28,225 nucleotides of DNA. Source: a virus. Lineage: Duplodnaviria > Heunggongvirae > Uroviricota > Caudoviricetes. Position 1 is the stretch's first letter. Each line of letters begins with the position of its first letter. The position numbers and the translations under genes were made by a program. A model generated the notes under the pieces. It ran no database searches. It saw only the letters and a program-made list of their open reading frames with translations, and had not been told where the DNA came from. This document shows, one piece after another, positions 10,617-27,500 of the stretch. The stretch lies in the IMG/VR virus record IMGVR_UViG_2526164619_000012, positions 1 through 28,225 of that record; one strand, written 5' to 3'.

Positions 10617-11115
10617 TGCAGGATATCCGGCAGGAAACACTGAATGAATGCACCCGTGCGGAGCAGTCGGCCAGCGTGGTGCTCTGGGAAATCGACCTGA
10701 CAGAGGTCGGTGGAGAACGTTATTTTTCTGTAATGAGCAGAACGAAAAAGGTGAGCCGGTCACCTGGCAGGGGCGACAGTATCAGCCGTATCCCATTCAG
10801 GGGAGTGGTTTTGAACTGAATGGCAAAGGCACCAGTACGCGCCCCACGCTGACGGTTTCTAACCTGTACGGTATGGTCGCCGGGATGGCGGAAGATCTGC
10901 AGAGTCTGGTCGGCGGAACGGTGGTCCGGCGTAAGGTTTACGCCCGTTTTCTGGATGCGGTGAACTTCGTCAACGGAAACAGTGACGCCGATCCGGAGCA
11001 GGAGGTGATCAGCCGCTGGCGCATCGAGCAGTGCAGCGAACTGAGCGCGGTCAGTGCCTCTTTTGTGCTGGCCACACCAACGGAGACGGATGGCGCGGTT
11101 TTCCCGGGGCGTATC
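10616..11115 (+). pseudogene. L: Tail assembly protein L, N-terminal 156 codons (frameshifted and truncated at the inversion breakpoint)
   Basis: MQDIRQETLNECTRAEQSASVVLWEIDLTEVGGERYF then a frameshift in the T5 run at 10723-10727 (lambda continues ...FFCNEQNEKGEPVTWQ, which is readable in the next frame). Homology ends at ...AVFPGRI (11115). Confidence 0.75.
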
Positions 11116-11116
11116 A

Positions 11117-13476
11117 CCCCTTCAGCACCTCCTCAGCCCTCCGGTAGTCCTCCGTCCCGTAAGTGCCTTTCTGGCGACTGTCATTCTCAAGCTGTTGCAA
11201 CTGTTGCCGGTATTCCTGCCGGATGCGCAACTGTGCCTGGTAGCGCTGCCGCTGCTTATCCCCCATACCTGCAGTGGCAATATCCAGATTGTGCTGCTCA
11301 CGCAGTGCACGTTCTTTGTCTGCCAGCTGGCTGGTCAGCTGAACCGTTTTTTTCTCAGGTCGTTAAGCGCTGTCTGTTTCTGCAGCTCCTGCTGTTTCAC
11401 ATCCAGCAGCGTCAGCGCCTGAATCAGCTCATTCTTACGGGCCAGCACACTCTTTTCATCTGCCGTCAGCTTTTTCCCGTCCAGGTCGCTGATGCGCTGC
11501 TGCAGGGCCAGAAGCTGTTTATGCGCTTCAGTCATCCTTTCAGTGGCAATGCCTGCTGACTGTCTGGCAGCAGCAATCTGCCCTTCCACCTGTGCCTGCT
11601 GCTGACTGTACTGCAGCAATAACCGGGTGGCCTCATCATTACGGGTTGCCCGTGTATTTTTCTTAATGGCTTTTTCGTAACGTTCATTTTCACGCTGTAT
11701 CGCCGCATCCCTGACAGCCTAGTCGGCGTACTGCATGGCATTAATACGCGCAATTTCCCGCTGATGTCGTGCAGCTTCCGTTTCATTCATCCGGTTCAGC
11801 GCGGCATTTTCAGCATTCCGGCGTTTCTGTTGCTCCTGGTAATTCCGTTCTGCCTGCGCTTTTGCATCCTGCAAATCCTTCCGGCGTTTTTTCTCCTGAA
11901 GATCGTTAAGACGCTGCTGATCGTACTCCACCTGTGTGGAGGCGTTTGTCCACGGATATTTTTTCGCGCGCTGAATTTTTTCCTGTAACGCATCAATCTG
12001 CGCATCCAGCGAGTCTTCACGACCAATATTCATGGCCGCATCCCAGAACTGCTTCCACCAGTCAGACAAGGTTTGCAGCGTACTACCCAGCGCATTGAGA
12101 TTATTATCAATATCAGATGTGCGTTTACCGGTTTCCTCTGCCAGCGCAGACATGGCGATCCGGGCCGCATCACTGGACCGCCCCTGCTCCCCAAGGACGC
12201 GTATCTGCTCAAGCTGAGTGGCAGTCAAAAAATGCAGCGCATTGTCCAGCGCCTTCGCGGCATTTACAGGATCATCCTTCAGCCGCTTAAACTGATTTAT
12301 GGTATCGCTGACCGACTGGCCAACCGATCGCTCCATCTGTGCGGCAGCTTTCGCCACCATACCAATATCGTTTCCATGAAATGCCCCACTGCCCACCACC
12401 TGTGCCAGCGCACCGGCTGCCGCATGTTGCGTGATACCATTCCCGGATATGGCCCGGCTGAGTTTCCACAACTGCCCGACAGTGACACCGGCATAATGTC
12501 CCGTCAGCGCCAGCTGACGGTTAAATTCCTCGCCCTCCTTCCGGCCGTCATGCCAGGCTTTACCCAGACCCAGGACCGCCGCGACAAGTCCGCCAATAAC
12601 GCCGCCAGTCATCATGCCTTTCGGCGACATCAGTGCGCCTGTCCATCCGGCACGGTTAGCCAGCGTTATCCCGGATCCCCTCAGCGCACCAAAATTGCCG
12701 CGCGCCATCTGACTGATTAACCCCCCCAGCTCCCGCCGGGCTGCCGCACTTTTCAGCCCCAGCGAATGTGTGGCTTTTCCTGCCCGCTCCATTTTGCGGA
12801 TATACACTTCTGCAGCACTGCTTACCCCCAGCTGAGCCGCCCTGGCGCGAAGCAACTCAGAAGACGACAGATTCTGGCGGGTTGCCTGCTCTTTAAGCTG
12901 GCGGATAAACGCCGCTTTCTGCCGGGTGGCCTGTTCCTCTGCCTGCGTCAGGGCACGGGTTTTCGCCGTGATCTCCGAAATCAACGCCAGATAATCCTGC
13001 TGACCAACCCCGCCACTGTTTCTGGCCTGTCGGATCTGCTGCTGAATACGCTGTAATTCCTGAAGCCCCGCACCGGCCTGTTTCACACTGTCAATCTGGC
13101 GATAAAAGGCGGCAGCCGCTTTATCCTGCGCCTCCGCCAGTGCCCTGGCCTGCGCCTGTTCCTCGCGCATTTTCTGATTCAGGGCATCCACGCGCAGACG
13201 GGTTTGTTCCACCTCACGGGCCATGCGTTCATGAGCCCGTGCATTCTTCTCCACCGTCTGCGCATGGGCTGATGCTGCTGTTACAGCCGAAGAAGCCGCC
13301 TGCATTGTCTGCCGGGCCGCCTGAGTCTGACGCTCCATAAAACGCTGCATACGGGCAGAAGACCGTTCTGCATCACCGGCTGCACCATTCAGAAGGTTTT
13401 TGATACGGGGAATTTCATTTTTAAACTCTGCCGCATCAATCCCCAAATCAATGACCAGGTTGGCTATCTGGTCCAT
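11117..13476 (-). pseudogene. H: Tape measure protein H, N-terminal part (amber stop plus homopolymer frameshift, truncated at the inversion breakpoint)
   Basis: Starts MDQIANLVIDLGIDAAEF... (lambda MAEPVGDLVVDLSLDAARF...). In-frame TAG at 11719-11721, after which the same frame continues (...AMQYAD*AVRDAAIQRENERYEKA...). A second break in the A7 run (plus-strand T-run 11347-11353) is followed by a coiled-coil frame that ends ...EEVLKG at 11117. Confidence 0.8.
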
Positions 13477-13790
13477 AACGCACACCTCCGGAAATACCTT
13501 CCCCAAGATGCATCAGTTCTTCGTCCGTTCGCTCCGGTATCCAGTTCTCTTCCGGTAAAAGGCTGAAATCAGCCACCGCAGCATCACTGCTGCCGGACAC
13601 CATTCTCACGATCAATGCCTTCAGCGAGGCAAACTGCGCATCCATCCACACATCACTGAAGCTCTGCATCCGGAAATAATCGCCCCACTCACCAAGCTCA
13701 GTGGCCGACATTTCCGACAGCATCCGCCGCCAGTCTGCCCGCCGGAACTCCCGGGCAAGCCGCATGACAAACTGCATTTCCCGCGTCAGG
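13448..13790 (-). CDS. T: Tail assembly chaperone T segment (expressed as a G-T fusion by -1 frameshifting)
   Basis: 109-aa ORF in the -1 frame relative to G; it overlaps the 3' end of G and the 5' end of H, which is the lambda G/GT arrangement. Confidence 0.6.
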
Positions 13791-14172
13791 ACTTTTCCGG
13801 CGTCAGCGCCTCATGATCATCATCCCCGGCATTCTCAATGGTCCCCATACCGCTCAGCGACAGAACCCTCTCCGCCCCCGCGCCCAGCGCATCATACGAC
13901 CATGTTGTCATAATGGATGCGCAAAGCGTCTCAACATCCTGAGACTGCTCAGCATTCCACAGTGAGCGGGAAACCAGCCAGGCATTGATATCCATTCCCA
14001 TACGCAGAAAAGCAATCTGTCGTTCAGCCTCCGGCAGTTCTCCCTCCTGTGCATCAAACTTTGCCGTTCGCTGCTGAACAAACGTCAGATATTCAATTCT
14101 CTGCAGCCCGGACAGCTCACTGAGCACCACGGACTGTTTTTCATAATTAAACGTATCCTGTTTCAGAAACAT
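13786..14172 (-). CDS. G: Tail assembly chaperone G
   Basis: MFLKQDTFNYEKQSVVLSELSGLQRIEYL... matches lambda G (MFLKTESFEHNGVTVTLSELSALQRIEHL...). Confidence 0.7.
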   Translation of the reverse strand: MFLKQDTFNYEKQSVVLSELSGLQRIEYLTFVQQRTAKFDAQEGELPEAERQIAFLRMGMDINAWLVSRSLWNAEQSQDVETLCASIMTTWSYDALGAGAERVLSLSGMGTIENAGDDDHEALTPEKS

Positions 14173-14230
14173 CATGTTCTCCGGATGCAAAAAGCCCCGG
14201 ATAACCGGGACAATGATGAGTATCGTCCTG

Positions 14231-14971
14231 TTATGGTGCGCTGACGGTCACCGCAGCCACTGCCACAAACTCTCCGTCAGAGGTCATGCCCACGATGCTG
14301 ACACTGCCCTGCTTCACGCCTTTCACCGTGGCCACAAGCCCGCTCAGGGTCACCGAAGCAGTCTGAGGATCTGACGAATACACACTGATCGCTTTGTCAC
14401 TGGCCCCGTCAGGTTTTACTGTAAAGGTCAGTGTGGTGGTTGCTCCCGCTTTGACACTGACAGATGCCGGTGCCACCGTCAGTCCGGTAACACCCACGGT
14501 TTCAGCGTCCTCCTCTGCCAGATACGGACGCCCCACACCGCTGATTTTTACAGTACGGGTCATCACCTCTTTTGAGGTAATGGTTTTACCCAGTGAACTC
14601 AGCCAGCCACGGAAAACATCAACCGTACCGTTGGGGTATTTGATACGAAACGCGCAGACTTCACCGGAATCGAACAACTGAACCAGTTTTTTCTGCCCGC
14701 TGTCACCCGGACGCCAGGCCAGCGTCGCCAAAGTATCACCGACGGATTTCTGCCCCTGGGTTGTCGTTTTCCAGTCTGCATCTTCATCATCGAGATAAGT
14801 GTCATCTTCTGCATCAGCGGTCATTTCGCCAGGTTGCAGATCCTTCACCATCGCAAGACGCAGCCAGTCAGTGTCCGACAAAGGGTTCGCAAACGCATCG
14901 CCCTAGCCGGTGTACATCCAGAACGTCGTTCCCGCACCTTTCGTCTTTGCCAATGGATTTGGTGTGGTCAT
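14231..14971 (-). pseudogene. V: Major tail protein V with an in-frame amber codon at codon 23
   Basis: From the ATG at 14971: [44 protein letters not shown]..., with TAG at 14903-14905; the remainder is co-linear with lambda V (...[29 protein letters not shown]...). Confidence 0.75.
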
Positions 14972-17333: not shown

Positions 17334-17348
17334 GGTAATGACTCCAAC

Positions 17349-17852
17349 TTACTGATAGTGTTTTATGTTCAGATAATGCCCGATGACCTTGTCATGCAGC
17401 TCCACCGATTTTGAGAACGACAGTGACTTCCGTCCCAGCCTTGCCAGATGTTGTCTCAGATTCAGATTATGTCGCTCAATGCGCTGAGTGTAACGCTTGC
17501 TGATAACGTGCAGCTTTCCCTTCAGGCGTGATTCATACAGCGGCCAGCCATCCGTCATCCATACCACGACCTCAAAGGCCGACAGCAGGCTCAGAAGACG
17601 CTCCAGTGTGGCCAGAGTGCCTTCACCGAAGACGTGCGCCACAACCGTCCTCCGTATCCTGTCATACGCGTAAAACAGCCAGCGCTGACGTGATTTAGCA
17701 CCGACGTAGCCCCACTGTTCGTCCATTTCAGCGCAGACAATCACATCACTGCCCGGTTGTATGCGCGAGGTTACCGACTGCGGCCTGAGTTTTTTAAGTG
17801 ACGTAAAACCGTGTTGAGGCCAACGCCCATAATGCGTGCACTGGCGCGACAT
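17349..17852 (-). CDS. insB: IS1 InsB
   Basis: 167-aa ORF; one substitution relative to the other copies (VFGEGTL versus VFGERTL). Confidence 0.85.
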
Positions 17853-18046
17853 CCGACGCCATTCATGGCCATATCAATGATTTTCTGGTGCGTACCGGGC
17901 TGAGAGGCGGTGTAGGTGAACTGTAGTTGCCATGTTTTACGGCAATGAGAGCAGAGATAGCGCTGATGTCCGGCAGTGCTTTTGCCGTTACGCACCACGC
18001 CTTCAGTAGCGGAGCAGGAAGGACATCTGATGGAAATGGAAGCCAC
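17771..18046 (-). CDS. insA: IS1 InsA
   Basis: 91-aa ORF identical to the InsA of the IS1 copy at 9100-9867. Confidence 0.9.
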
Positions 18047-18181
18047 GCAAGCACCTTAAAATCACCATCATACACTAAATCAGTAAGTTGGCAGCATTAC
18101 CAGCTGTATTGAAGCATTCCATGAGGCTGAAACCAACCTGAATCACACTGTTTTCCGTCGTAATCAATGGGAGGTGCGCCC

Positions 18182-21839: not shown

Positions 21840-22213
21840 TGCGCCATGAGTTTATTTTACCTTATCCGCCGACGGTGAATACTTACTGGCGACGTCGTGA
21901 CAACACATATTTTGTATCAAAAGCCGGTGAGCGTTATCGCCGGGATGTGGCGCTTATTGTCCGTCAGCAGCGACTGAAATTAAGCCTGTCCGGAAGACTG
22001 GCGATAAAGATTATTGCAGAGCCACCGGATAAGCGCCGTCGTGACCTGGACAATATCCTGAAAGCACCACTGGATGCACTGACACATGCGGGAGTGTTAA
22101 TGGACGATGAGCAGTTTGATGAAATCAATATCGTTCGTGGTCAGCCAGTATCTGGTGGACGTCTGGGGGTGAAGATTTACCCCATAATGCATGAAGAGCA
22201 GGTCAAAAAATGA
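21839..22213 (+). CDS. rusA: RusA Holliday junction resolvase
   Basis: 124 aa; ...PDKRRRDLDNILKAPLDALTHAGVLMDDEQ... matches the RusA catalytic region (...[30 protein letters not shown]...). Confidence 0.85.
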   Translation: MRHEFILPYPPTVNTYWRRRDNTYFVSKAGERYRRDVALIVRQQRLKLSLSGRLAIKIIAEPPDKRRRDLDNILKAPLDALTHAGVLMDDEQFDEINIVRGQPVSGGRLGVKIYPIMHEEQVKK

Positions 22214-23031
22214 AACTGGAAGATTTACCGAAATACTACTCCCCAAAATCCCCTTGCCTGACCGATGCATCGGCCTCAACGTCAAAAGATGCGCTGAGTA
22301 TCACTGATGTGATGGCCGCGCAGGGCATGACACAGAATCGGGCTGAGATGGGGTTTTCTGCGTTCCAGGGGAAAATGGGCATCAGTATGAATGACAGGGC
22401 GCGGGCAACAGAATTACTGGCAGATTATGCACTCAGTCGGTGCGATCGTGTGGCGGCGTTGAGAAAACTTCCGGCAGAAATAAAACCGGTAGTGATGCGC
22501 ATTATGGCTTCGTACGCTTTTGAGGATTATGCCCGCAGCGCAGCGAGTAAAAAGCAGTGCCCTTGTTGCTATGGGGAAAAATTTATTGAAAGCGTAGTTT
22601 TTACAAACAAGGTCCAGTATCCGGATGGTAAGCCGCCGGTATGGGCAAAGTGTACGAAAGGTGTGTATCCGTCTTACTGGGAAGAATGGAAAAAAGTCAG
22701 AGAGGTGGTAAAAGTTGCCTGTCCGGAGTGTGGCGGAAAGGGTGAGGTTTCCACCGCCTGTAAGGATTGCCGTGGGCGTGGTGTCGCCATTCATCGTGAA
22801 GAGTCGGTAAAACGTGGTATGCCTGTTATCAGAGACTGCCAGCGTTGTGGTGGTCGTGGCTATGAAAGACTACCATCAACGGAGGCATTTAATGCTATAT
22901 GCGAGGTGACAAACCAGATAACACGCGCGTCATGGGAAAAAACAGTTAAGAAATTCTATGATGCGCTGGTGACCCGGTTTGATATTGAAGAAGCATGGGC
23001 TGAGCGGCAGTTAAAAAAGGTAACTAGGTAA
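22210..23031 (+). CDS. Q: Late-gene antiterminator Q-like protein
   Basis: 273 aa in the position after rusA, with several CxxC pairs (CPCCYGE, CPECGG, CKDCRGRG, CQRCGGRG); followed by a promoter-terminator pair and tRNA genes as in Stx-type lambdoid phages. Confidence 0.7.
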   Translation: MKLEDLPKYYSPKSPCLTDASASTSKDALSITDVMAAQGMTQNRAEMGFSAFQGKMGISMNDRARATELLADYALSRCDRVAALRKLPAEIKPVVMRIMASYAFEDYARSAASKKQCPCCYGEKFIESVVFTNKVQYPDGKPPVWAKCTKGVYPSYWEEWKKVREVVKVACPECGGKGEVSTACKDCRGRGVAIHREESVKRGMPVIRDCQRCGGRGYERLPSTEAFNAICEVTNQITRASWEKTVKKFYDALVTRFDIEEAWAERQLKKVTR

Positions 23032-23035
23032 CAAG

Positions 23036-23063
23036 GTTGATTTTTCCGGAATCTGTGGTAAAT
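23036..23063 (+). promoter_or_regulatory. Candidate late promoter (PR'-like) downstream of Q
   Basis: -35 TTGATT (23036-23041), 16-bp spacer, -10 TAAATT (23058-23063); position analogous to lambda PR'. Confidence 0.3.
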
Positions 23064-23111
23064 TCGTCATAACTATGGGCGTTTTATGCCTGACGTTAGA
23101 AGAGTTTCTAC

Positions 23112-23135
23112 AACCCGCCGCCGAGCGGGTTTTTT
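23112..23135 (+). terminator. tR'-like rho-independent terminator
   Basis: Hairpin CCCGC-CGCCGA-GCGGG followed by TTTTTTATT, about 50 nt downstream of the candidate promoter. Confidence 0.5.
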
Positions 23136-23174
23136 ATTGCGGAATTAATTACGGACCGTTATTATTCTGCTCCC

Positions 23175-23250
23175 GGCCCTTTAGCTCAGTGGTGAGAGCG
23201 AGCGACTCATAATCGCCAGGTCGCTGGTTCAAATCCAGCAAGGGCCACCA
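23175..23250 (+). tRNA. tRNA-Ile2 (anticodon CAU, ileX/ileZ-like; Met by sequence)
   Basis: Acceptor stem GGCCCTT/AAGGGCC, anticodon loop CTCATAA, T-arm GGTTCAAATCC, 3' CCA; closely resembles E. coli ileX. Confidence 0.85.
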
Positions 23251-23349
23251 TCACAAACCGCCATTAGCTTATCAGGAAGAGCAGACGACACGATAACAGG
23301 GTTGTTGGTGCGGGGGCGGGTCCCCGATGGCGGTCCATTATCGGTATTC

Positions 23350-23426
23350 AGCGTTGTTAGCTCAGCCGGACAGAGCAATTGCCTTCTAAGCAATCGGTCA
23401 CTGGTTCGAATCCAGTACAGCGCGCC
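23350..23426 (+). tRNA. tRNA-Arg (anticodon UCU)
   Basis: GCGTTGTTAGCTCAGCCGGACAGAGC..CTTCTAAG..GGTTCGAATCC..CGCGCCA; argU/argO-like cloverleaf. Confidence 0.85.
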
Positions 23427-23598
23427 ATATTCATTCTTCCAGATTCCTTCCGGCAGAGCCTTATACTGAAATATACCTGGCTCAGGATATTGTTGAAAAT
23501 ATTTTATGTTTGTCAAAAATAAAAGTTCTGTTAAGTATTGATTGGTAATGCTGCCAACTTACTGATTTAGTGTATGATGGTGATTTTAAGGTGCTTGC

Positions 23599-23874
23599 AT
23601 GGCTTCCATTTCCATCAGATGTCCTTCCTGCTCCGCTACTGAAGGCGTGGTGCGTAACGGCAAAAGCACTGCCGGACATCAGCGCTATCTCTGCTCTCAT
23701 TGCCGTAAAACATGGCAACTACAGTTCACTTACACCGCCTCTCAGCCCGGTACGCACCAGAAAATCATTGATATGGCCATGAATGGCGTCGGATGCCGCG
23801 CCAGTGCACGCATTATGGGCGTTGGCCTCAACACGGTTTTACGTCACTTAAAAAACTCAGGCCGCAGTCGGTAA
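23599..23874 (+). CDS. insA: IS1 InsA
   Basis: 91-aa ORF identical to the other InsA copies. Confidence 0.9.
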
Positions 23875-24296
23875 CCTCGCGCATACAACCGGGCAGTGAT
23901 GTGATTGTCTGCGCTGAAATGGACGAACAGTGGGGCTACGTCGGTGCTAAATCACGTCAGCGCTGGCTGTTTTACGCGTATGACAGGATACGGAGGACGG
24001 TTGTGGCGCACGTCTTCGGTGAACGCACTCTGGCCACACTGGAGCGTCTTCTGAGCCTGCTGTCGGCCTTTGAGGTCGTGGTATGGATGACGGATGGCTG
24101 GCCGCTGTATGAATCACGCCTGAAGGGAAAGCTGCACGTTATCAGCAAGCGTTACACTCAGCGCATTGAGCGACATAATCTGAATCTGAGACAACATCTG
24201 GCAAGGCTGGGACGGAAGTCACTGTCGTTCTCAAAATCGGTGGAGCTGCATGACAAGGTCATCGGGCATTATCTGAACATAAAACACTATCAGTAA
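23793..24296 (+). CDS. insB: IS1 InsB
   Basis: 167-aa ORF; begins MPRQCT where the other copies have MSRQCT. Confidence 0.85.
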
Positions 24297-24341
24297 GTTG
24301 GAGTCATTACCGTATTGATTGAGTGTTTGTTATACGGTCTA

Positions 24342-24668
24342 ATGGTTTTTTCAGCATTAAATATTTATCATTCATATGGTGTGGGTAGAGTGAATATTGA
24401 TGAGGCGTCGGGGTGTTTCATCCTTAGGCAGCGTATTGATATAGTCAATGCAGCACGAGCAAAGGCCTTCAGCCGTTTGACAGTTTTGTTCTGTACTCCT
24501 GATCGTCTTTCGGGAAGAGACGTTATTATTCTGAATAGTGATGCTATACAGAGGGTTTGCGATGAGTTCATGGTTGCTAATTCAGAATTATTTGCTCTTG
24601 TTCAGGAGTACAACAGAATAGCCAGGACCTGTGGTATGGATGAACTTCGGATTACTCATCTGGGGTAG
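24342..24668 (+). CDS. Hypothetical protein (about 107 aa) in the post-Q/tRNA cargo slot
   Basis: ORF with an in-frame TAA immediately upstream; first ATG at 24342 (MVFSALNIYHSYGVGRVNIDEASGCFILRQRIDIVNAARAKAF...); lower GC than the surrounding phage genes; no family recognised. Confidence 0.4.
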   Translation: MVFSALNIYHSYGVGRVNIDEASGCFILRQRIDIVNAARAKAFSRLTVLFCTPDRLSGRDVIILNSDAIQRVCDEFMVANSELFALVQEYNRIARTCGMDELRITHLG

Positions 24669-25063
24669 ATACATATCTGGATTATCACCTGTTACGGTAA
24701 AAAGTGATTGCTTACTGTTTTTGTGAATGGCATTGCAGCAGCCGGATAATGTCAGTGCTGGCTGACGGTGTGCTGGTGGCGGGTGTGGTAGTTGTTGCTT
24801 TCCCGTTGCTGAAAAAGAAAACGCCAGACTGTTAGCCGGGTATCAGTTAGCGGGAGAAATTTTTAAATACTTCACAATTCAGGCGGTTGACTGTTGTCTG
24901 GTTTGCGGGGAGTTTGTTAAAAGAAACTGGCATGGTGAATCCCCCTGTGCGGAGGGGCAATCAGCGAGTAGGTATATGGGATAATCGCGGATTCAGGTGC
25001 TGGTACTGAATTCACCGGGAGGCACCCGGCACCATGCAATGGCACATAGCGCCACTCTCCAGC

Positions 25064-25098
25064 CCCTCTCCGGAGGGGCTGTTTATATTGATTTTGTC
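25064..25098 (+). terminator. Candidate rho-independent terminator
   Basis: Hairpin CCCCTC-TCCG-GAGGGG followed by CTGTTTATATTGATTTT. Confidence 0.35.
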
Positions 25099-25115
25099 AG
25101 ATGTGAGTAAACTCC

Positions 25116-25451
25116 TTATGGACTTTGTTGTTTTAGTCCATAAGGACATATTTGCAGAGTGCAACGGTTATTAAAGCATTCATTCAATACGTTATCTGTA
25201 TTTGTAGGGCATTCCTGGCTGTTTTTGATTAAATTCCAGAATGTTTTATTGAATGGTACTACGTTATAAATGGTTACAGGTAGCACTTTGTTATTGAGCA
25301 TGATGCCTGTGTGAGTCAGTGTAAATATACTTTCAGGAGGTAAGAAAGCATCCGATTGATACCAGATTATTAATTTTATTTTACTCCATATGACTGAAAA
25401 AGATATTCCGCATGATGGCTGGATAACTGTATCAATCACAATCCACTTCAT
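25116..25451 (-). CDS. Hypothetical protein (111 aa) in an AT-rich island
   Basis: ATG at 25451 with an AAGGAAA ribosome-binding site; [34 protein letters not shown]...; markedly AT-rich codon usage; no family recognised. Confidence 0.45.
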
Positions 25452-25711
25452 TTAGTTTCCTTATTTATGCCTTGCTGGTGATGTTCTGAAAAGTATAAAT
25501 GATATTTTTGAATGTAAACCATAGAGCAGAATTATTTTTCTGATGTTGTTTATTGTTTATTTAAATGCAGGGTGGTTTATATCTCGTCTTGTAGTTTATC
25601 CATGCATATCTGCTTGATAATCAGGTTTTTATTTAAGGTATGGTTTTGTGTTTTTTCTGTATTACATGTCAGGTATTTTAAAGAATTATTTTTCAGATGG
25701 TGGAAAGAACC

Positions 25712-25900
25712 ATGGCATTTAAACACTATGATGTTGTCAGGGCGGCGCCGCCGTCAGATCTTGCGGAAAAGCTGACACATAAACTGAAAGAGGGCTGGCA
25801 GCCGTTTGGTAGTCCGGTGGCCATAACCCCTTATACCCTGATACAGGCGATTGCAGCAGAAGGTGATGTGGTGGTCAGTGGTGCAACTGAGCCGGAGTGA
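25712..25900 (+). CDS. Hypothetical small protein, possibly DUF1737-like
   Basis: ATG at 25712 with a GGAAAG ribosome-binding site; MAFKHYDVVRAAPPSDLAEKLTHKLKEGWQPFGSPV...; the YDV...PSDL...EGWQP pattern is reminiscent of DUF1737 as I recall it. Tentative. Confidence 0.35.
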   Translation: MAFKHYDVVRAAPPSDLAEKLTHKLKEGWQPFGSPVAITPYTLIQAIAAEGDVVVSGATEPE

Positions 25901-26104
25901 TACTACGTCATCGTACTGGCCCGGCATTCCAGGCCATAAAAGACAGTCTGGCAGTGGGACTAAATGCACTGACGCTGACGGATATTACCAAAAATGCAAC
26001 GTATGGCGTTGAGATAGAAAGTCTGGTGCTGGAGATAAATGCACCGGCATGAGGTGTACTGGCAATAGCGGACACTACCATTTGTTCTTTTTTTAAGCAG
26101 CCAT

Positions 26105-26911
26105 CTAATGATATTTTTCCCTGAAGGCTGCCGGGGAGATATTCCCCAGACGAGAGTGACGACGCTGACGATTGTAGAAAATCTCAATGTATTCCCGTAT
26201 TACTGAGATGGCTTCATCCCGGTTATTAAAACGATAGTGGCTCAGGCTCTCATTTTTCAGCGTTCCCCAGAAGCTTTCCATCGGAGCGTTGTCGTAACAG
26301 TTACCTTTACGCGACATTGATGTTTTCAGACCAGACTGCTCCTGTATGACCCGGTAATCGTATGCGCAGTACTGTGAACCTCGATCAGAGTGGTGGATTA
26401 GCCCGGCAGGTGGGCGCTGGCTCCTGAGCGCCATAAACAGGGCTTTACCTGTCAGCTCTTTTGTCATGCGCTCTCCCATGGCGTAGCCGACAATTTCGCA
26501 CGTATAAACATCTTTGATGCCAGCGAGGTACAACCATCCCTCCTGTGTGGCAACATACGTCAGGTCCGCCACCCAGACCTGATTTGGTGCTGTAGGAGCG
26601 AACGTCTGGTTCAGCAGATTTGGCGCAACTGGCAGATTGTGGTTCGGGTTCGTAGTCGCTCTGAACTTGCGTTTCTGCTTACAGCGTAGCCTTAGCTCCT
26701 TACGAAGACGTGCCAGTCGGTCACGACCAACGATGATGCCATTCTCTGCCAGCTCCGTCTGGAGCCGCCGGGTTCCATATGTTTCGCGAGTGCGGATATG
26801 TGCCACCTTAATCTCCAGTTTTAGCCGCTCATCACTTTGTTTTCTGTCTGAGGGTTCATGCTGTACCCAGTTGTAATAACCGCTCCTGGATACACCAAAT
26901 ACCTGACACAT
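26105..26911 (-). CDS. IS600 OrfB (transposase catalytic DDE part; expressed as an OrfAB frameshift fusion)
   Basis: 268-aa ORF with an IS3-family integrase core (...HSDRGSQYCAYDY...NCYDNAPMESFWGTLKNE...). Confidence 0.85.
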   Translation of the reverse strand: MCQVFGVSRSGYYNWVQHEPSDRKQSDERLKLEIKVAHIRTRETYGTRRLQTELAENGIIVGRDRLARLRKELRLRCKQKRKFRATTNPNHNLPVAPNLLNQTFAPTAPNQVWVADLTYVATQEGWLYLAGIKDVYTCEIVGYAMGERMTKELTGKALFMALRSQRPPAGLIHHSDRGSQYCAYDYRVIQEQSGLKTSMSRKGNCYDNAPMESFWGTLKNESLSHYRFNNRDEAISVIREYIEIFYNRQRRHSRLGNISPAAFREKYH

Positions 26912-26946
26912 CGCTTCAATGGGAAATTGTTGTCGCCATTGTTCGA

Positions 26947-27249
26947 TTAACGCGTATTTTTCAGCGACTCCTGTGCAAAATACGCTGTTGCTTTTTTTAA
27001 TATATCTCGCTCAAGGCGAGCTTCATTTAACGCCTTACGCAGTTGCAGAATTTCAGATTCCAGTTCAGCCACCGTGCGGGAACCAGGAGTACCGAGCCCT
27101 TTTCTGGCGGCGGTAACCCATTGTCCTAAAGTGCCTTCAGGAAGGGATAATCGGGAAGCGCCTTCACTGATCGAAAGTTGATTTTCAAGAACCGTTCTGA
27201 CAGCTTCGGCTTTGAACTCTTTAGAGTAACGTTGGTTTTTTCTGCTCAT
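26947..27249 (-). CDS. IS600 OrfA (transposase N-terminal helix-turn-helix part)
   Basis: 100 aa, MSRKNQRYSKEFKAEAVRTVLENQLSISEGASRLSLPEGTLGQWV... Confidence 0.85.
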   Translation of the reverse strand: MSRKNQRYSKEFKAEAVRTVLENQLSISEGASRLSLPEGTLGQWVTAARKGLGTPGSRTVAELESEILQLRKALNEARLERDILKKATAYFAQESLKNTR

Positions 27250-27500
27250 TATTAGCTCCTTCTGATGCCATTCTATTTCAGGAAGGAGTGTCCGTTAAAC
27301 TCAGGCTACCTCAGCATGCTGGTCACTTGCCGCAGGAGCTAATCCTAGTTTTATCGCAAGCCAGATGGGCCACACAAACGCACAAATGGTATTCAATGTT
27401 TACGGAGCATGGATGAAAGACAACAATCACGAACAGATAGAACTTCTTAACAGAAGACTATCTGAAAGTGTCCCATGCATGCCCCATAAGAAAGCGGGGT

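What the first reader, a model, noticed from the sequence alone, without database searches (positions are those of the whole stretch)
23032..25115. Unrecognised cargo in the slot where Stx phages carry the toxin genes
The order Q, late promoter/terminator, tRNA-Ile(CAU), tRNA-Arg(UCU) is the classic context upstream of stxAB in Stx phages. Here that slot holds an IS1 (simple insertion, TSD GTATTGATT), then a ~107-codon ORF of unrecognised family (24342-24668) in the same orientation, then ~450 bp of structured non-coding sequence with two GC hairpins (24941-24957 and 25064-25079). No stx, lysis or nanS-like genes follow. The ORF would be read from the Q-dependent late transcript if the IS1 were absent.
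Basis: partly seen in the sequence, partly recalled or inferred. Interest (0 to 1): 0.6.

Follow-up and report, generated by a model that had tools for sequence, protein, structure and literature searches.

The report
Common prophage cargo in Stx slot
The stretch is the variable "cargo" position of a decayed lambda-like prophage, where Shiga-toxin phages carry the toxin genes; here it holds an IS1, a small conserved gene of unknown function, a gene remnant and a known small RNA, all widespread in E. coli, so it is ordinary rather than new.

Summary
Both flanks are homologous to the flanks of stx2AB in an Stx2 phage: the tRNA block at 88% and the STnc100-iraM-nanS block at 70%.

The IS1 (23544-24311) is a simple insertion with a 9-bp duplication. 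E. coli 042 carries the same module at 99.5% identity without it.

The ORF is a real gene, but it runs from GTG 24390 to 24668 and encodes 92 aa. It belongs to phrog_2873. Three diverged clades align without indels, with dN/dS about 0.26. The predicted fold is a generic two-helix hairpin, so function stays unknown. RefSeq left the ORF region unannotated in 36 of 40 sampled genomes.

The "structured non-coding" stretch is not empty. It contains a 5'-truncated tciB/DUF3927 remnant (24704-24835) and the known prophage sRNA STnc100 (24901-25090).

One is an iraM-like anti-adaptor gene on the minus strand (25116-25451). The other is an internally deleted nanS-p (25697-26052), cut by IS600.

The cargo is very common: the ORF region is in 1,185 of 5,426 complete E. 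coli genomes, and the exact 108-aa product appears in 7,259 collection blocks. Low novelty.

The parts
22210..23031 (+). Q-type late antiterminator gene (273 aa)
   Evidence: Pfam PF03589 Antiterm 1.1e-53. The equivalent 273-aa gene is annotated as antitermination protein in E. coli 042.
23037..23140 (+). PR'-like late promoter (TTGATT, 16 nt, TGgTAAATT) and tR'-like intrinsic terminator (stem 23112-23131 plus T-run)
   Evidence: The terminator is listed by the scan. The promoter hexamers are my own reading; they score below the scan's 9/12 threshold.
23175..23250 (+). tRNA with anticodon CAU (tRNA-Ile2 / ileZ type)
   Evidence: ARAGORN, Rfam tRNA 72.5 bits. The same gene is annotated tRNA-Ile in E. 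coli 042 and ileZ in the Stx2 phage.
23351..23427 (+). tRNA-Arg(UCU)
   Evidence: ARAGORN, Rfam 68 bits. 88% identical block to the argN/argO region of Stx2 phages.
23535..23543 (.). Left copy of the 9-bp target-site duplication GTATTGATT
   Evidence: Direct reading and script.
23544..24311 (+). IS1, 768 bp, insA 23599-23874 and insB' 23793-24296 open, terminal inverted repeats present
   Evidence: Two further IS1 copies lie at 9100-9867 (+) and 17334-18101 (-). The element is absent from the otherwise 99.5% identical E. coli 042 locus.
24312..24320 (.). Right copy of the target-site duplication GTATTGATT
24390..24668 (+). Conserved 92-codon gene (GTG start), phrog_2873, predicted two-helix hairpin, function unknown.
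   Evidence: phrog_2873 5.6e-58. Conservation starts at NIDE. GTG start is shared by three clades, and one clade has a stop 5 codons upstream. dN/dS is 0.26-0.27 with no indels at 67-72% nt identity. An ungapped family alignment holds down to 21-40% identity. AlphaFold2 pLDDT 85.5.
24704..24835 (+). DUF3927 / TciB-like small membrane-protein ORF (43 aa). Only its 3' part, about 100 nt, is homologous to full-length tciB, so it is a 5'-truncated remnant at a mosaic joint near 24736.
   Evidence: Pfam PF13064 1.7e-27. phrog_1470 matches residues 12-40 only. Homology to JLK-2012 tciB begins at window 24736, which is 65 nt into that gene.
24901..25090 (+). STnc100 prophage sRNA gene (RF02076) with its Rho-independent terminator (25060-25081 plus T-run).
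   Evidence: cmscan 132.4 bits against a gathering score of 47, E 3.7e-30, full-length model match. Terminator scan. Fold -74.6 kcal/mol, z -2.2.
25116..25451 (-). iraM-like anti-adaptor gene (111 aa), antisense to the late operon
   Evidence: NCBIfam NF007393 162 bits against a cut-off of 121. 62% identity to K-12 IraM. 75% identity to an unannotated ORF in the Stx2 phage. PGAP names it IraM in E. coli 042.
25547..25563 (+). PhoP-box-like direct repeat TGTTTATTGTTTATTTA, 96-112 bp upstream of the iraM-like start codon
   Evidence: It is the only match in the window; 0.01 are expected by chance. The consensus was recalled from memory, so this is a lead only.
25697..26052 (+). Internally deleted nanS-p esterase: DUF1737 N-terminal ORF (25697-25900) and a 51-aa C-terminal ORF (25897-26052) cut by IS600
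   Evidence: Pfam DUF1737 6.2e-17. phrog_143 positions 1-58 and 582-630 of 634. Homology to E. coli 042 ends at 26050.
26053..27300 (-). IS600 (IS3 family), replacing the lysis and morphogenesis genes and abutting an integrase remnant and mlrA
   Evidence: 99.9% identical to elements annotated as IS3-like element IS600. orfA/orfB are open. The MlrA C-terminal ORF starts at 27577 (MlrA Pfam domains in L030-L035).

Best explanation
The interval is the hypervariable cargo (moron) position of a lambdoid late operon, in a prophage remnant at mlrA that carries several IS elements and is of Shigella type.

The conserved frame is: Q, PR'/tR', tRNA-Ile2, tRNA-Arg, then the cargo, then STnc100, iraM (antisense) and nanS-p. 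Stx2 phages carry stx2AB at the cargo position. Other phages carry nothing there, or tciA-tciB.

Here the cargo consists of three things:
1. An IS1 that inserted 69 bp upstream of the gene start.
2. One intact 92-codon gene (24390-24668, phrog_2873).
3. The 3' stump of tciB (DUF3927).

The 'structured non-coding' DNA is the STnc100 sRNA gene and its terminator.

How it works:
- Shown: the 92-aa gene is protein-coding and under purifying selection. In every relative examined it lies between Q and the lysis genes, on the late strand.
- Inferred: in IS1-free relatives it has no convincing promoter of its own. It would be transcribed from PR' by Q-modified RNA polymerase that reads through tR' and the tRNAs. 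Unmodified transcripts would end at the STnc100 terminator.
- Inferred, low confidence: its product is a soluble, mostly acidic two-helix coiled-coil hairpin. It most likely acts by binding another protein rather than DNA or membrane.
- Inferred: in this window the gene is a passenger. IS1 separates it from PR', IS600 has removed the lysis and structural genes, and sister Shigella genomes have deleted the gene altogether.
For: Slot homology on both flanks to an Stx2 phage, with an empty slot in phi296 and tciAB in JLK-2012.

Simple IS1 insertion relative to E. coli 042.

The ORF is a real gene:
- phrog_2873 at 5.6e-58.
- Three clades at 59-63% aa identity with no indels and dN/dS 0.26-0.27.
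- An ungapped family alignment down to 21-40% identity with invariant R23, P37, N64, Y74 and N75.

Its position between Q and holin/lysozyme is conserved in E. coli and Salmonella relatives.

No promoter signal above chance upstream of the gene in the IS1-free locus (4 hits against 2.0 +/- 1.4 expected).

Hairpin model with pLDDT 85.5. Four of the five members checked are acidic, pI 4.8-5.7, and the fifth has pI 9.24.

STnc100, iraM, DUF3927 and the nanS-p remnants all score above curated thresholds.

STnc100 copies are transcribed in EHEC, and one copy was confirmed by Northern blot (PMC5331693). STnc100 overlaps the Hfq-binding sRNA EcOnc27 downstream of stx2B (PMC12711010).

Deletion of the gene in the S. 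boydii Sb227-type locus, which shares the same IS600/mlrA junction.
Against: - No expression data exist for the 92-aa gene.
- PGAP leaves the ORF region unannotated in 36 of the 40 sampled RefSeq genomes and in all of those that carry this clade.
- Its Shine-Dalgarno sequence in this clade is weak (GTGGGTAGAGTG, against CAGGAGTAGAGTG in clade C).
- Only 1 of 50,697 deposited phage genomes carries it, so it may mostly reside in defective prophages.
- The fold is generic, and no partner or activity can be inferred.
- Q-dependent read-through of tR', the tRNAs and IS1 is assumed from lambda and Stx-phage biology and was not tested.
- One family member has pI 9.2, so 'acidic protein binder' does not hold for the whole family.
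Confidence: 0.75

Rival explanations
1. The 92-aa protein is the second gene of a regulatory cassette headed by a prophage YdeO/GadX-like AraC regulator. It could be the regulator's target, co-factor or anti-activator. On this reading the window lineage has kept only this half of the cassette.
For: In two diverged clades the gene lies 90-130 bp downstream of a 241-242-aa AraC-family gene: L004 2721-3446 followed by 3536-3814, and L011 4142-4870 followed by 5001-5279. That regulator's best NCBIfam matches are YdeO and GadX, both below their cut-offs. In L011 no promoter-like site separates the two genes, and a strong terminator follows at 5303-5320.
Against: No AraC gene precedes the 92-aa gene in the window clade (the most abundant one), in L003 or in the Salmonella relative L009. 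The linkage was seen in only a handful of loci and was not tested statistically. There is no evidence of interaction.
Confidence: 0.15
2. The ORF is a chance open frame in AT-rich intergenic DNA and not a gene, as the RefSeq annotation implies.
For: PGAP annotates nothing under the ORF region in 36 of 40 sampled genomes. There is no Pfam or NCBIfam family. The ribosome-binding site in this clade is weak.
Against: Three clades at 67-72% nucleotide identity keep the frame open with no indels. Third-position changes are in excess (for example 19/19/39), and dN/dS is about 0.26, whereas the other two frames carry 4-13 stops. The family has 20 representatives at 50% identity, including Salmonella members at 40% identity. 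RefSeq does annotate the clade-C version, WP_001017777.1.
Confidence: 0.04
3. The 92-aa protein is a toxin-like or virulence cargo analogous to Stx. It would be produced late and released by phage lysis to act on the host animal or on competitors.
For: It has the same position and orientation as stxAB downstream of Q and the tRNAs. It is widespread in E. coli from humans and animals.
Against: No hydrophobic signal-peptide-like or transmembrane segment is apparent in the sequence (no predictor was run). There is no similarity to any toxin or effector family. The fold is a simple helical hairpin. The gene is lost without consequence in sister Shigella genomes. It occurs in commensal and environmental strains.
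Confidence: 0.05

Closest known systems
stx2AB locus of Stx2-converting phages (example: Stx2a_WGPS8, AP012540.1; 933W/Sp5 type)
   Same: The frame is the same: Q, PR'/tR', ileZ and arg tRNAs, cargo, STnc100, iraM-like ORF on the opposite strand, nanS-p. The tRNA block is 88% identical and the downstream block 70% identical over about 1 kb.
   Different: The cargo is stx2A-stx2B there. Here it is IS1, the 92-aa gene and a tciB stump. This window has two tRNAs rather than three. Its nanS-p is internally deleted and its lysis genes are replaced by IS600.
IS1-free prophage module of E. coli 042 (NC_017626.1, about 2.255 Mb) and of about 860-1,190 other complete E. coli genomes
   Same: 99.5% identical from Q through the nanS-p remnant, including the 92-aa ORF, DUF3927, STnc100, iraM and the split DUF1737/C-terminal ORFs.
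   Different: It has no IS1, and holin, lysozyme and terminase genes follow instead of IS600. PGAP leaves the 92-aa gene unannotated there.
tciA-tciB cargo of Escherichia phage JLK-2012 (JQ347801.1), and the AraC / 92-aa / TerB-like / DUF3927 cassette of L011
   Same: It occupies the same slot between Q plus tRNAs and nanS-p (yjhS). The 3' part of tciB and the sequence after it are 93% identical to window 24736-25037. L011 shows the 92-aa gene and tciA-tciB side by side.
   Different: The window lacks tciA (the TerB-domain gene) and the first roughly 22 codons of tciB. JLK-2012 lacks the 92-aa gene.
PHROG family phrog_2873 (unknown function)
   Same: The product aligns to profile positions 17-108 of 108 at E 5.6e-58.
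   Different: The profile's first 16 positions correspond to the non-conserved upstream extension, and my comparison puts the start at the GTG. The family has no assigned function.
STnc100 (Rfam RF02076), which overlaps EcOnc27/sRNA103 of EHEC and is related to PasD
   Same: A full-length covariance-model match with all stems and the terminator. It has the same position downstream of the cargo as in Stx1 and Stx2 phages (PMC12370729, PMC12711010, bioRxiv 10.64898/2026.05.13.724894).
   Different: This copy has a shortened central stem-loop region: about 11 model positions are deleted. Its targets are unknown.
IraM (YcgW) of E. coli K-12, an anti-adaptor that blocks RssB-mediated RpoS degradation
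   Same: 62% identity over 107 aa. It scores above the NCBIfam subfamily cut-off. It has a PhoP-box-like repeat upstream.
   Different: It is prophage-borne and 111 aa long. RssB binding and PhoP control were not tested here.

Membership tests
IS1 | About 768-bp element with imperfect terminal inverted repeats, insA and insB' frames, and a 9-bp target duplication | tested here: met
   768 bp. The ends GGTAATG...CATTACC are inverted repeats. InsA is 91 aa and InsB' 167 aa, both open. GTATTGATT lies on both sides. It is 99.5-99.7% identical to two other copies in the window.
Stx-phage toxin slot (late-operon cargo position) | Flanks homologous to the flanks of stxAB: Q/PR'/tR' and the ileZ-arg tRNAs upstream, STnc100 and nanS-p downstream | tested here: met
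   88% identity over 303 bp upstream and 70% over 1,029 bp downstream, against AP012540.1. STnc100 also lies just after stx1B in Shigella phage 75/02.
Stx-converting prophage | Presence of stxA/stxB | tested here: not met
   The roughly 1.4 kb between tRNA-Arg and STnc100 consists of IS1, short AT-rich spacers, the 92-aa gene and the tciB stump. No stx ORF is listed.
phrog_2873 | Significant full-length match to the family profile | tested here: met
   E 5.6e-58, 194.8 bits, residues 1-92 against profile positions 17-108.
Protein-coding gene (as opposed to a chance ORF) | Frame conserved without indels, and excess synonymous change between diverged homologues | tested here: met
   dN/dS 0.26-0.27 in three pairwise comparisons. 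Codon-position differences are 19/19/39, 25/23/43 and 23/18/40. The alternative frames carry 4-13 stops.
DUF3927 / TciB (PF13064, phrog_1470) | Match above the Pfam gathering score, and the full-length roughly 50-aa protein | tested here: inconclusive
   The Pfam score of 95.6 bits exceeds the cut-off of 25. However, nucleotide and PHROG homology cover only the C-terminal part, about 30 residues, and the N-terminus is unrelated to full-length members. It is a remnant, or possibly a shortened variant that PGAP still names.
STnc100 (RF02076) | Covariance-model score at or above the gathering threshold over the whole model | tested here: met
   132.4 bits against 47, model positions 1-206.
STnc100 (RF02076) | Expressed, Hfq-associated sRNA | not testable with these tools
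   The only evidence comes from other strains. Copies are transcribed in EDL933, and one copy was confirmed by Northern blot (PMC5331693). An Hfq-bound sRNA, EcOnc27, overlaps the copy downstream of stx2B (PMC12711010).
IraM anti-adaptor (NCBIfam NF007393) | Score above the curated cut-off, and similarity to characterised K-12 IraM | tested here: met
   162 bits against 121. 62% identity over 107 aa to b1160.
IraM anti-adaptor (NCBIfam NF007393) | Binds RssB and stabilises RpoS; induced by PhoPQ at low Mg2+ | not testable with these tools
   The only lead is a PhoP-box-like repeat at 25547-25563.
NanS-p esterase (DUF1737 + SASA + DUF6645; phrog_143) | Full-length protein of about 620-660 aa with the SASA esterase domain | tested here: not met
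   Only the N-terminal DUF1737 part and the C-terminal roughly 50 aa remain. Full-length versions follow the same cargo in other genomes (L017, L019, L023).

The most novel reading that the evidence does not exclude
The 92-aa hairpin protein could be a host-modulating lysogenic-conversion factor that has so far been overlooked. It is carried at the stx position by prophages in more than a fifth of complete E. coli genomes, and RefSeq leaves it unannotated there. It might work with or against prophage YdeO/GadX-like regulators or another host regulator, much as the neighbouring IraM acts on RssB.
Probability: 0.12. Interest if true: 0.5.

Novelty: already known. Interest (0 to 1): 0.22.

Why it matters
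The result mostly clarifies what is there. It shows that the stx position is a general exchange point in lambdoid late operons, bounded by the tRNA block on one side and by the STnc100 sRNA on the other. It also shows that this Shigella-type remnant carries the commonest non-toxin filling of that slot.

Two practical by-products follow:
- A small gene under purifying selection, whose region is present in about 1,200 complete E. coli genomes, is left unannotated by PGAP in 36 of 40 genomes sampled.
- At least one deposited Stx2 phage record lacks an annotation for its iraM-like gene.

Neither point changes our understanding of these phages.

Tried and rejected
- **Family searches.** Pfam, NCBIfam and PADLOC gave nothing for the 92-aa product. 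A lenient Pfam scan of 11 family members gave only scattered single hits.
- **Finding the source genome.** An exact search for the IS1/flank junction in genome contigs gave 0 hits, so it did not identify the source genome. Looking up the IS600-truncated 51-aa ORF did find Shigella-type relatives.
- **Literature.** A search for TciA/TciB returned only Trypanosoma papers.
- **Own promoter for the gene.** Pattern hits upstream in the IS1-free locus are not above the shuffled expectation.
- **Weak Rfam hit.** The Trp_leader match at 23032-23138 (25.5 bits against 41) is just the tR' hairpin.
- **Pfam discrepancy.** My own Pfam scan of the iraM-like product returned no family, although the collection's precomputed table lists PF11183 PmrD for the identical 111-aa protein. 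I relied on NCBIfam and on the direct comparison with K-12 IraM instead.
Full report
**1. What is in the sequence**

The Q antiterminator gene at 22210-23031 (Pfam Antiterm 1.1e-53) is followed by a PR'-like promoter. I read this as TTGATT 23037-23042, a 16-nt spacer, then TGgTAAATT. An intrinsic terminator follows at 23112-23131 plus a T-run.

Two tRNAs follow. One has anticodon CAU at 23175-23250, and the other is Arg(UCU) at 23351-23427. ARAGORN labels the first as Met. The identical gene is annotated tRNA-Ile in E. coli 042, and its Stx-phage homologue is ileZ.

The IS1 is exactly 768 bp (23544-24311). Its insA and insB' frames are open and its terminal inverted repeats are present. It is flanked by GTATTGATT at 23535-23543 and 24312-24320. 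The window contains two more IS1 copies.

**2. The IS1 is a simple insertion into a very common module**

E. coli 042 is 99.5% identical to the window on both sides of the IS1. Window 22900-23544 aligns to L001 5366-6010, and window 24312-26050 aligns to L001 6001-7739. The two alignments overlap by the duplicated target.

The region 24297-25700 is covered at 80% or more in 863 of 5,426 complete E. coli genomes. The ORF region is covered in 1,185. The exact 108-aa ORF product is indexed in 7,259 blocks of the assembly collection. There it always lies downstream of Q. It is followed by DUF3927 and then either by iraM(-) plus full-length or deleted nanS-p, holin and lysozyme, or by TolA-like genes, holin and lysozyme.

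**3. The slot comparison holds**

Window 23135-23435 is 88% identical to the ileZ-argN-argO block just upstream of stx2A in phage Stx2a_WGPS8. More than 270 Stx-phage records match this block.

Window 24872-25869 aligns at 70% over about 1 kb to the sequence just downstream of stx2B in the same phage. That sequence contains STnc100 (158.5 bits). It also contains an unannotated 107-aa iraM-like ORF on the opposite strand, 75% identical to the window's, and the start of nanS-p.

In phage phi296 the tRNAs are followed directly by STnc100 and NanS, so the slot is empty there. In phage JLK-2012 the slot holds tciA-tciB. In Shigella phage 75/02, STnc100 lies between stx1B and the esterase gene.

The cargo position is therefore bounded by the tRNA block on the left and STnc100 on the right.

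**4. The ORF**

Pfam, NCBIfam and PADLOC give nothing for it. PHROGs gives phrog_2873, of unknown function, at 5.6e-58.

Protein searches found three E. coli clades at 59-63% identity to the window protein. They also found Salmonella and other members at 21-43% identity. There are only 20 representatives at 50% identity among 1.84 billion proteins, so the family is small and appears confined to enterobacterial prophages.

Conservation begins exactly at residues NIDE. One clade has a stop five codons upstream of the GTG. Another clade has a good Shine-Dalgarno sequence (AGGAG) before the same GTG. The gene is therefore 24390-24668 and encodes 92 aa.

Pairwise comparisons of the three clades cover 67-72% nucleotide identity. 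They show no indels, a third-position excess of changes, and dN/dS of 0.26-0.27. The other two frames contain 4-13 stops. An 11-member alignment is ungapped over the core, with invariant R23, P37, N64, Y74 and N75. This is a real gene and not a fragment of a larger one.

PGAP nevertheless annotates nothing under it in 36 of 40 sampled genomes. Only one of 50,697 deposited phage genomes carries it.

**5. What the protein might do**

AlphaFold2 (pLDDT 85.5, pTM 0.73) predicts two long helices (3-35 and 50-81) forming a hairpin, with the conserved F-S-R-L-T-V-x-F/Y-x-x-P-D-R motif at the turn.

The structural searches gave nothing specific:
- Foldseek against PDB and BFVD found nothing at E <= 0.001.
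- PDB profile searches gave only sub-threshold GapR/UPF0335 hits. I do not accept these.

Four of the five members checked are acidic, with pI 4.8-5.7, and the fifth has pI 9.24. No hydrophobic signal-peptide-like or transmembrane segment is apparent, although no predictor was run. The most I can commit to is a soluble coiled-coil protein that acts through protein-protein contacts. This is inference with low confidence.

Context adds one lead. In two diverged clades the gene directly follows a 241-242-aa AraC-family gene whose best matches are YdeO and GadX. In L011 the pair ends in a strong terminator and is followed by a TerB-like tciA and a DUF3927 tciB. The window clade, L003 and the Salmonella locus lack that regulator.

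**6. The 'structured non-coding' 450 bp**

Positions 24704-24835 form a DUF3927 ORF (Pfam 1.7e-27). Homology to full-length tciB begins only at 24736, which is 65 nt into that gene, and the N-terminus is unrelated. It is a 5'-truncated remnant marking a mosaic joint.

Positions 24901-25090 are a full-length match to the STnc100 sRNA (RF02076; 132.4 bits against a gathering score of 47).

What the literature says about STnc100:
- It is a multicopy prophage sRNA. EDL933 has 11 copies, which are transcribed, and one was confirmed by Northern blot (PMC5331693).
- It overlaps the Hfq-binding sRNA EcOnc27 downstream of stx2B (PMC12711010).
- It lies 75 nt downstream of the stx2 operon in other STEC strains (PMC12370729).
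- It is structurally related to PasD (bioRxiv 10.64898/2026.05.13.724894).

It also occurs in tandem arrays in some of the loci I fetched.

**7. Just beyond the interval**

A 111-aa iraM-like gene lies on the minus strand at 25116-25451. It scores 162 bits against a cut-off of 121 on NCBIfam NF007393, and it is 62% identical to K-12 IraM. A PhoP-box-like repeat lies about 100 bp upstream; it is the only match in the window, with 0.01 expected by chance. The consensus was recalled from memory, so this is a lead only.

Positions 25697-25900 (DUF1737) and 25897-26052 match the two ends of NanS-p, so the esterase gene is internally deleted. IS600 begins at about 26051-26053 and replaces the lysis and morphogenesis genes. 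An integrase remnant and mlrA follow.

**8. Origin and fate**

The IS600-truncated 51-aa ORF is found in S. boydii Sb227 (CP000036.1) and related genomes, at the same mlrA junction. In those genomes an IS1 abuts the DUF3927 stump directly, and Lom lies on its other side. Q, the tRNAs and the 92-aa gene have been deleted. In Shigella-type hosts, then, the gene is dispensable.

In the window, IS1 separates the gene from PR'. No promoter signal above chance lies upstream of it in the IS1-free locus. Tail genes elsewhere in the window are inverted and interrupted by IS1 copies. The cargo here is best seen as a silent or weakly expressed passenger in a decaying prophage.

**9. Verdict**

The slot homology is real. 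The cargo, however, is a known and very widespread module made of catalogued parts, and one of those parts has no known function. Novelty is low ('already known'). The residual interest lies in the small gene, which is conserved, under purifying selection, and routinely unannotated.

Noticed in passing
L007 (AP012540.1, Stx2a_WGPS8) 6419-6742, minus strand: An unannotated 107-aa iraM-like ORF lies between stx2B/STnc100 and nanS-p in a deposited Stx2a phage. It is 75% identical to the window's iraM-like product. Stx2 phages of this type may therefore carry an RpoS anti-adaptor homologue next to the toxin genes.
   Followed up: partly
L011 4142-5320; L004 2721-3814: In two diverged clades the 92-aa gene lies directly downstream of a YdeO/GadX-like AraC-family regulator gene. 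In L011 the pair ends in a strong intrinsic terminator and is followed by a TerB-like tciA and a DUF3927 tciB.
   Followed up: partly
L004 2132-2344 and 5440-6419; L005 2696-5658: STnc100 occurs in arrays: five copies in each of these two loci, four of them back to back in L004. They lie between cargo genes and nanS-p, as if the element also serves as a recombination scaffold or boundary between cargo cassettes.
   Followed up: no
L030-L035 (including S. boydii Sb227, CP000036.1): Sister genomes share the window's IS600/mlrA junction and the truncated 51-aa nanS ORF. Their order is Lom, IS1, DUF3927 stump, so about 20 kb including Q, the tRNAs and the 92-aa gene has been removed, presumably by IS1-mediated deletion.
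   Followed up: partly
window 9100-9867 (+), 17334-18101 (-), 23544-24311 (+): The window holds three nearly identical IS1 copies. Lambda-like tail genes (lom, J, a fused I/K-like ORF, L, tape measure, tail tube) lie on the minus strand at 3118-14881, opposite to the Q/late region. This indicates IS-mediated rearrangement of the prophage.
   Followed up: partly
window 25547-25563: A PhoP-box-like direct repeat TGTTTATTGTTTATTTA lies 96-112 bp upstream of the iraM-like start codon. It is the only match in the window, with 0.01 expected by chance. It overlaps a promoter-like site on the iraM strand (25559 to 25531).
   Followed up: partly
window 25116-25451 (-): My Pfam scan of the iraM-like product returned no family. 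The assembly collection's precomputed table lists PF11183 (PmrD) for the identical 111-aa protein. This is probably a difference in version or threshold.
   Followed up: no
window 23516-23489 (-): The best sigma-70-like match in the region (TTGACA, 16 nt, AACAAT; 10/12) points leftwards, antisense to tRNA-Arg, in the AT-rich spacer just left of the IS1. It is conserved in E. coli 042 (L001 5982-5955). Its significance is unknown.
   Followed up: no
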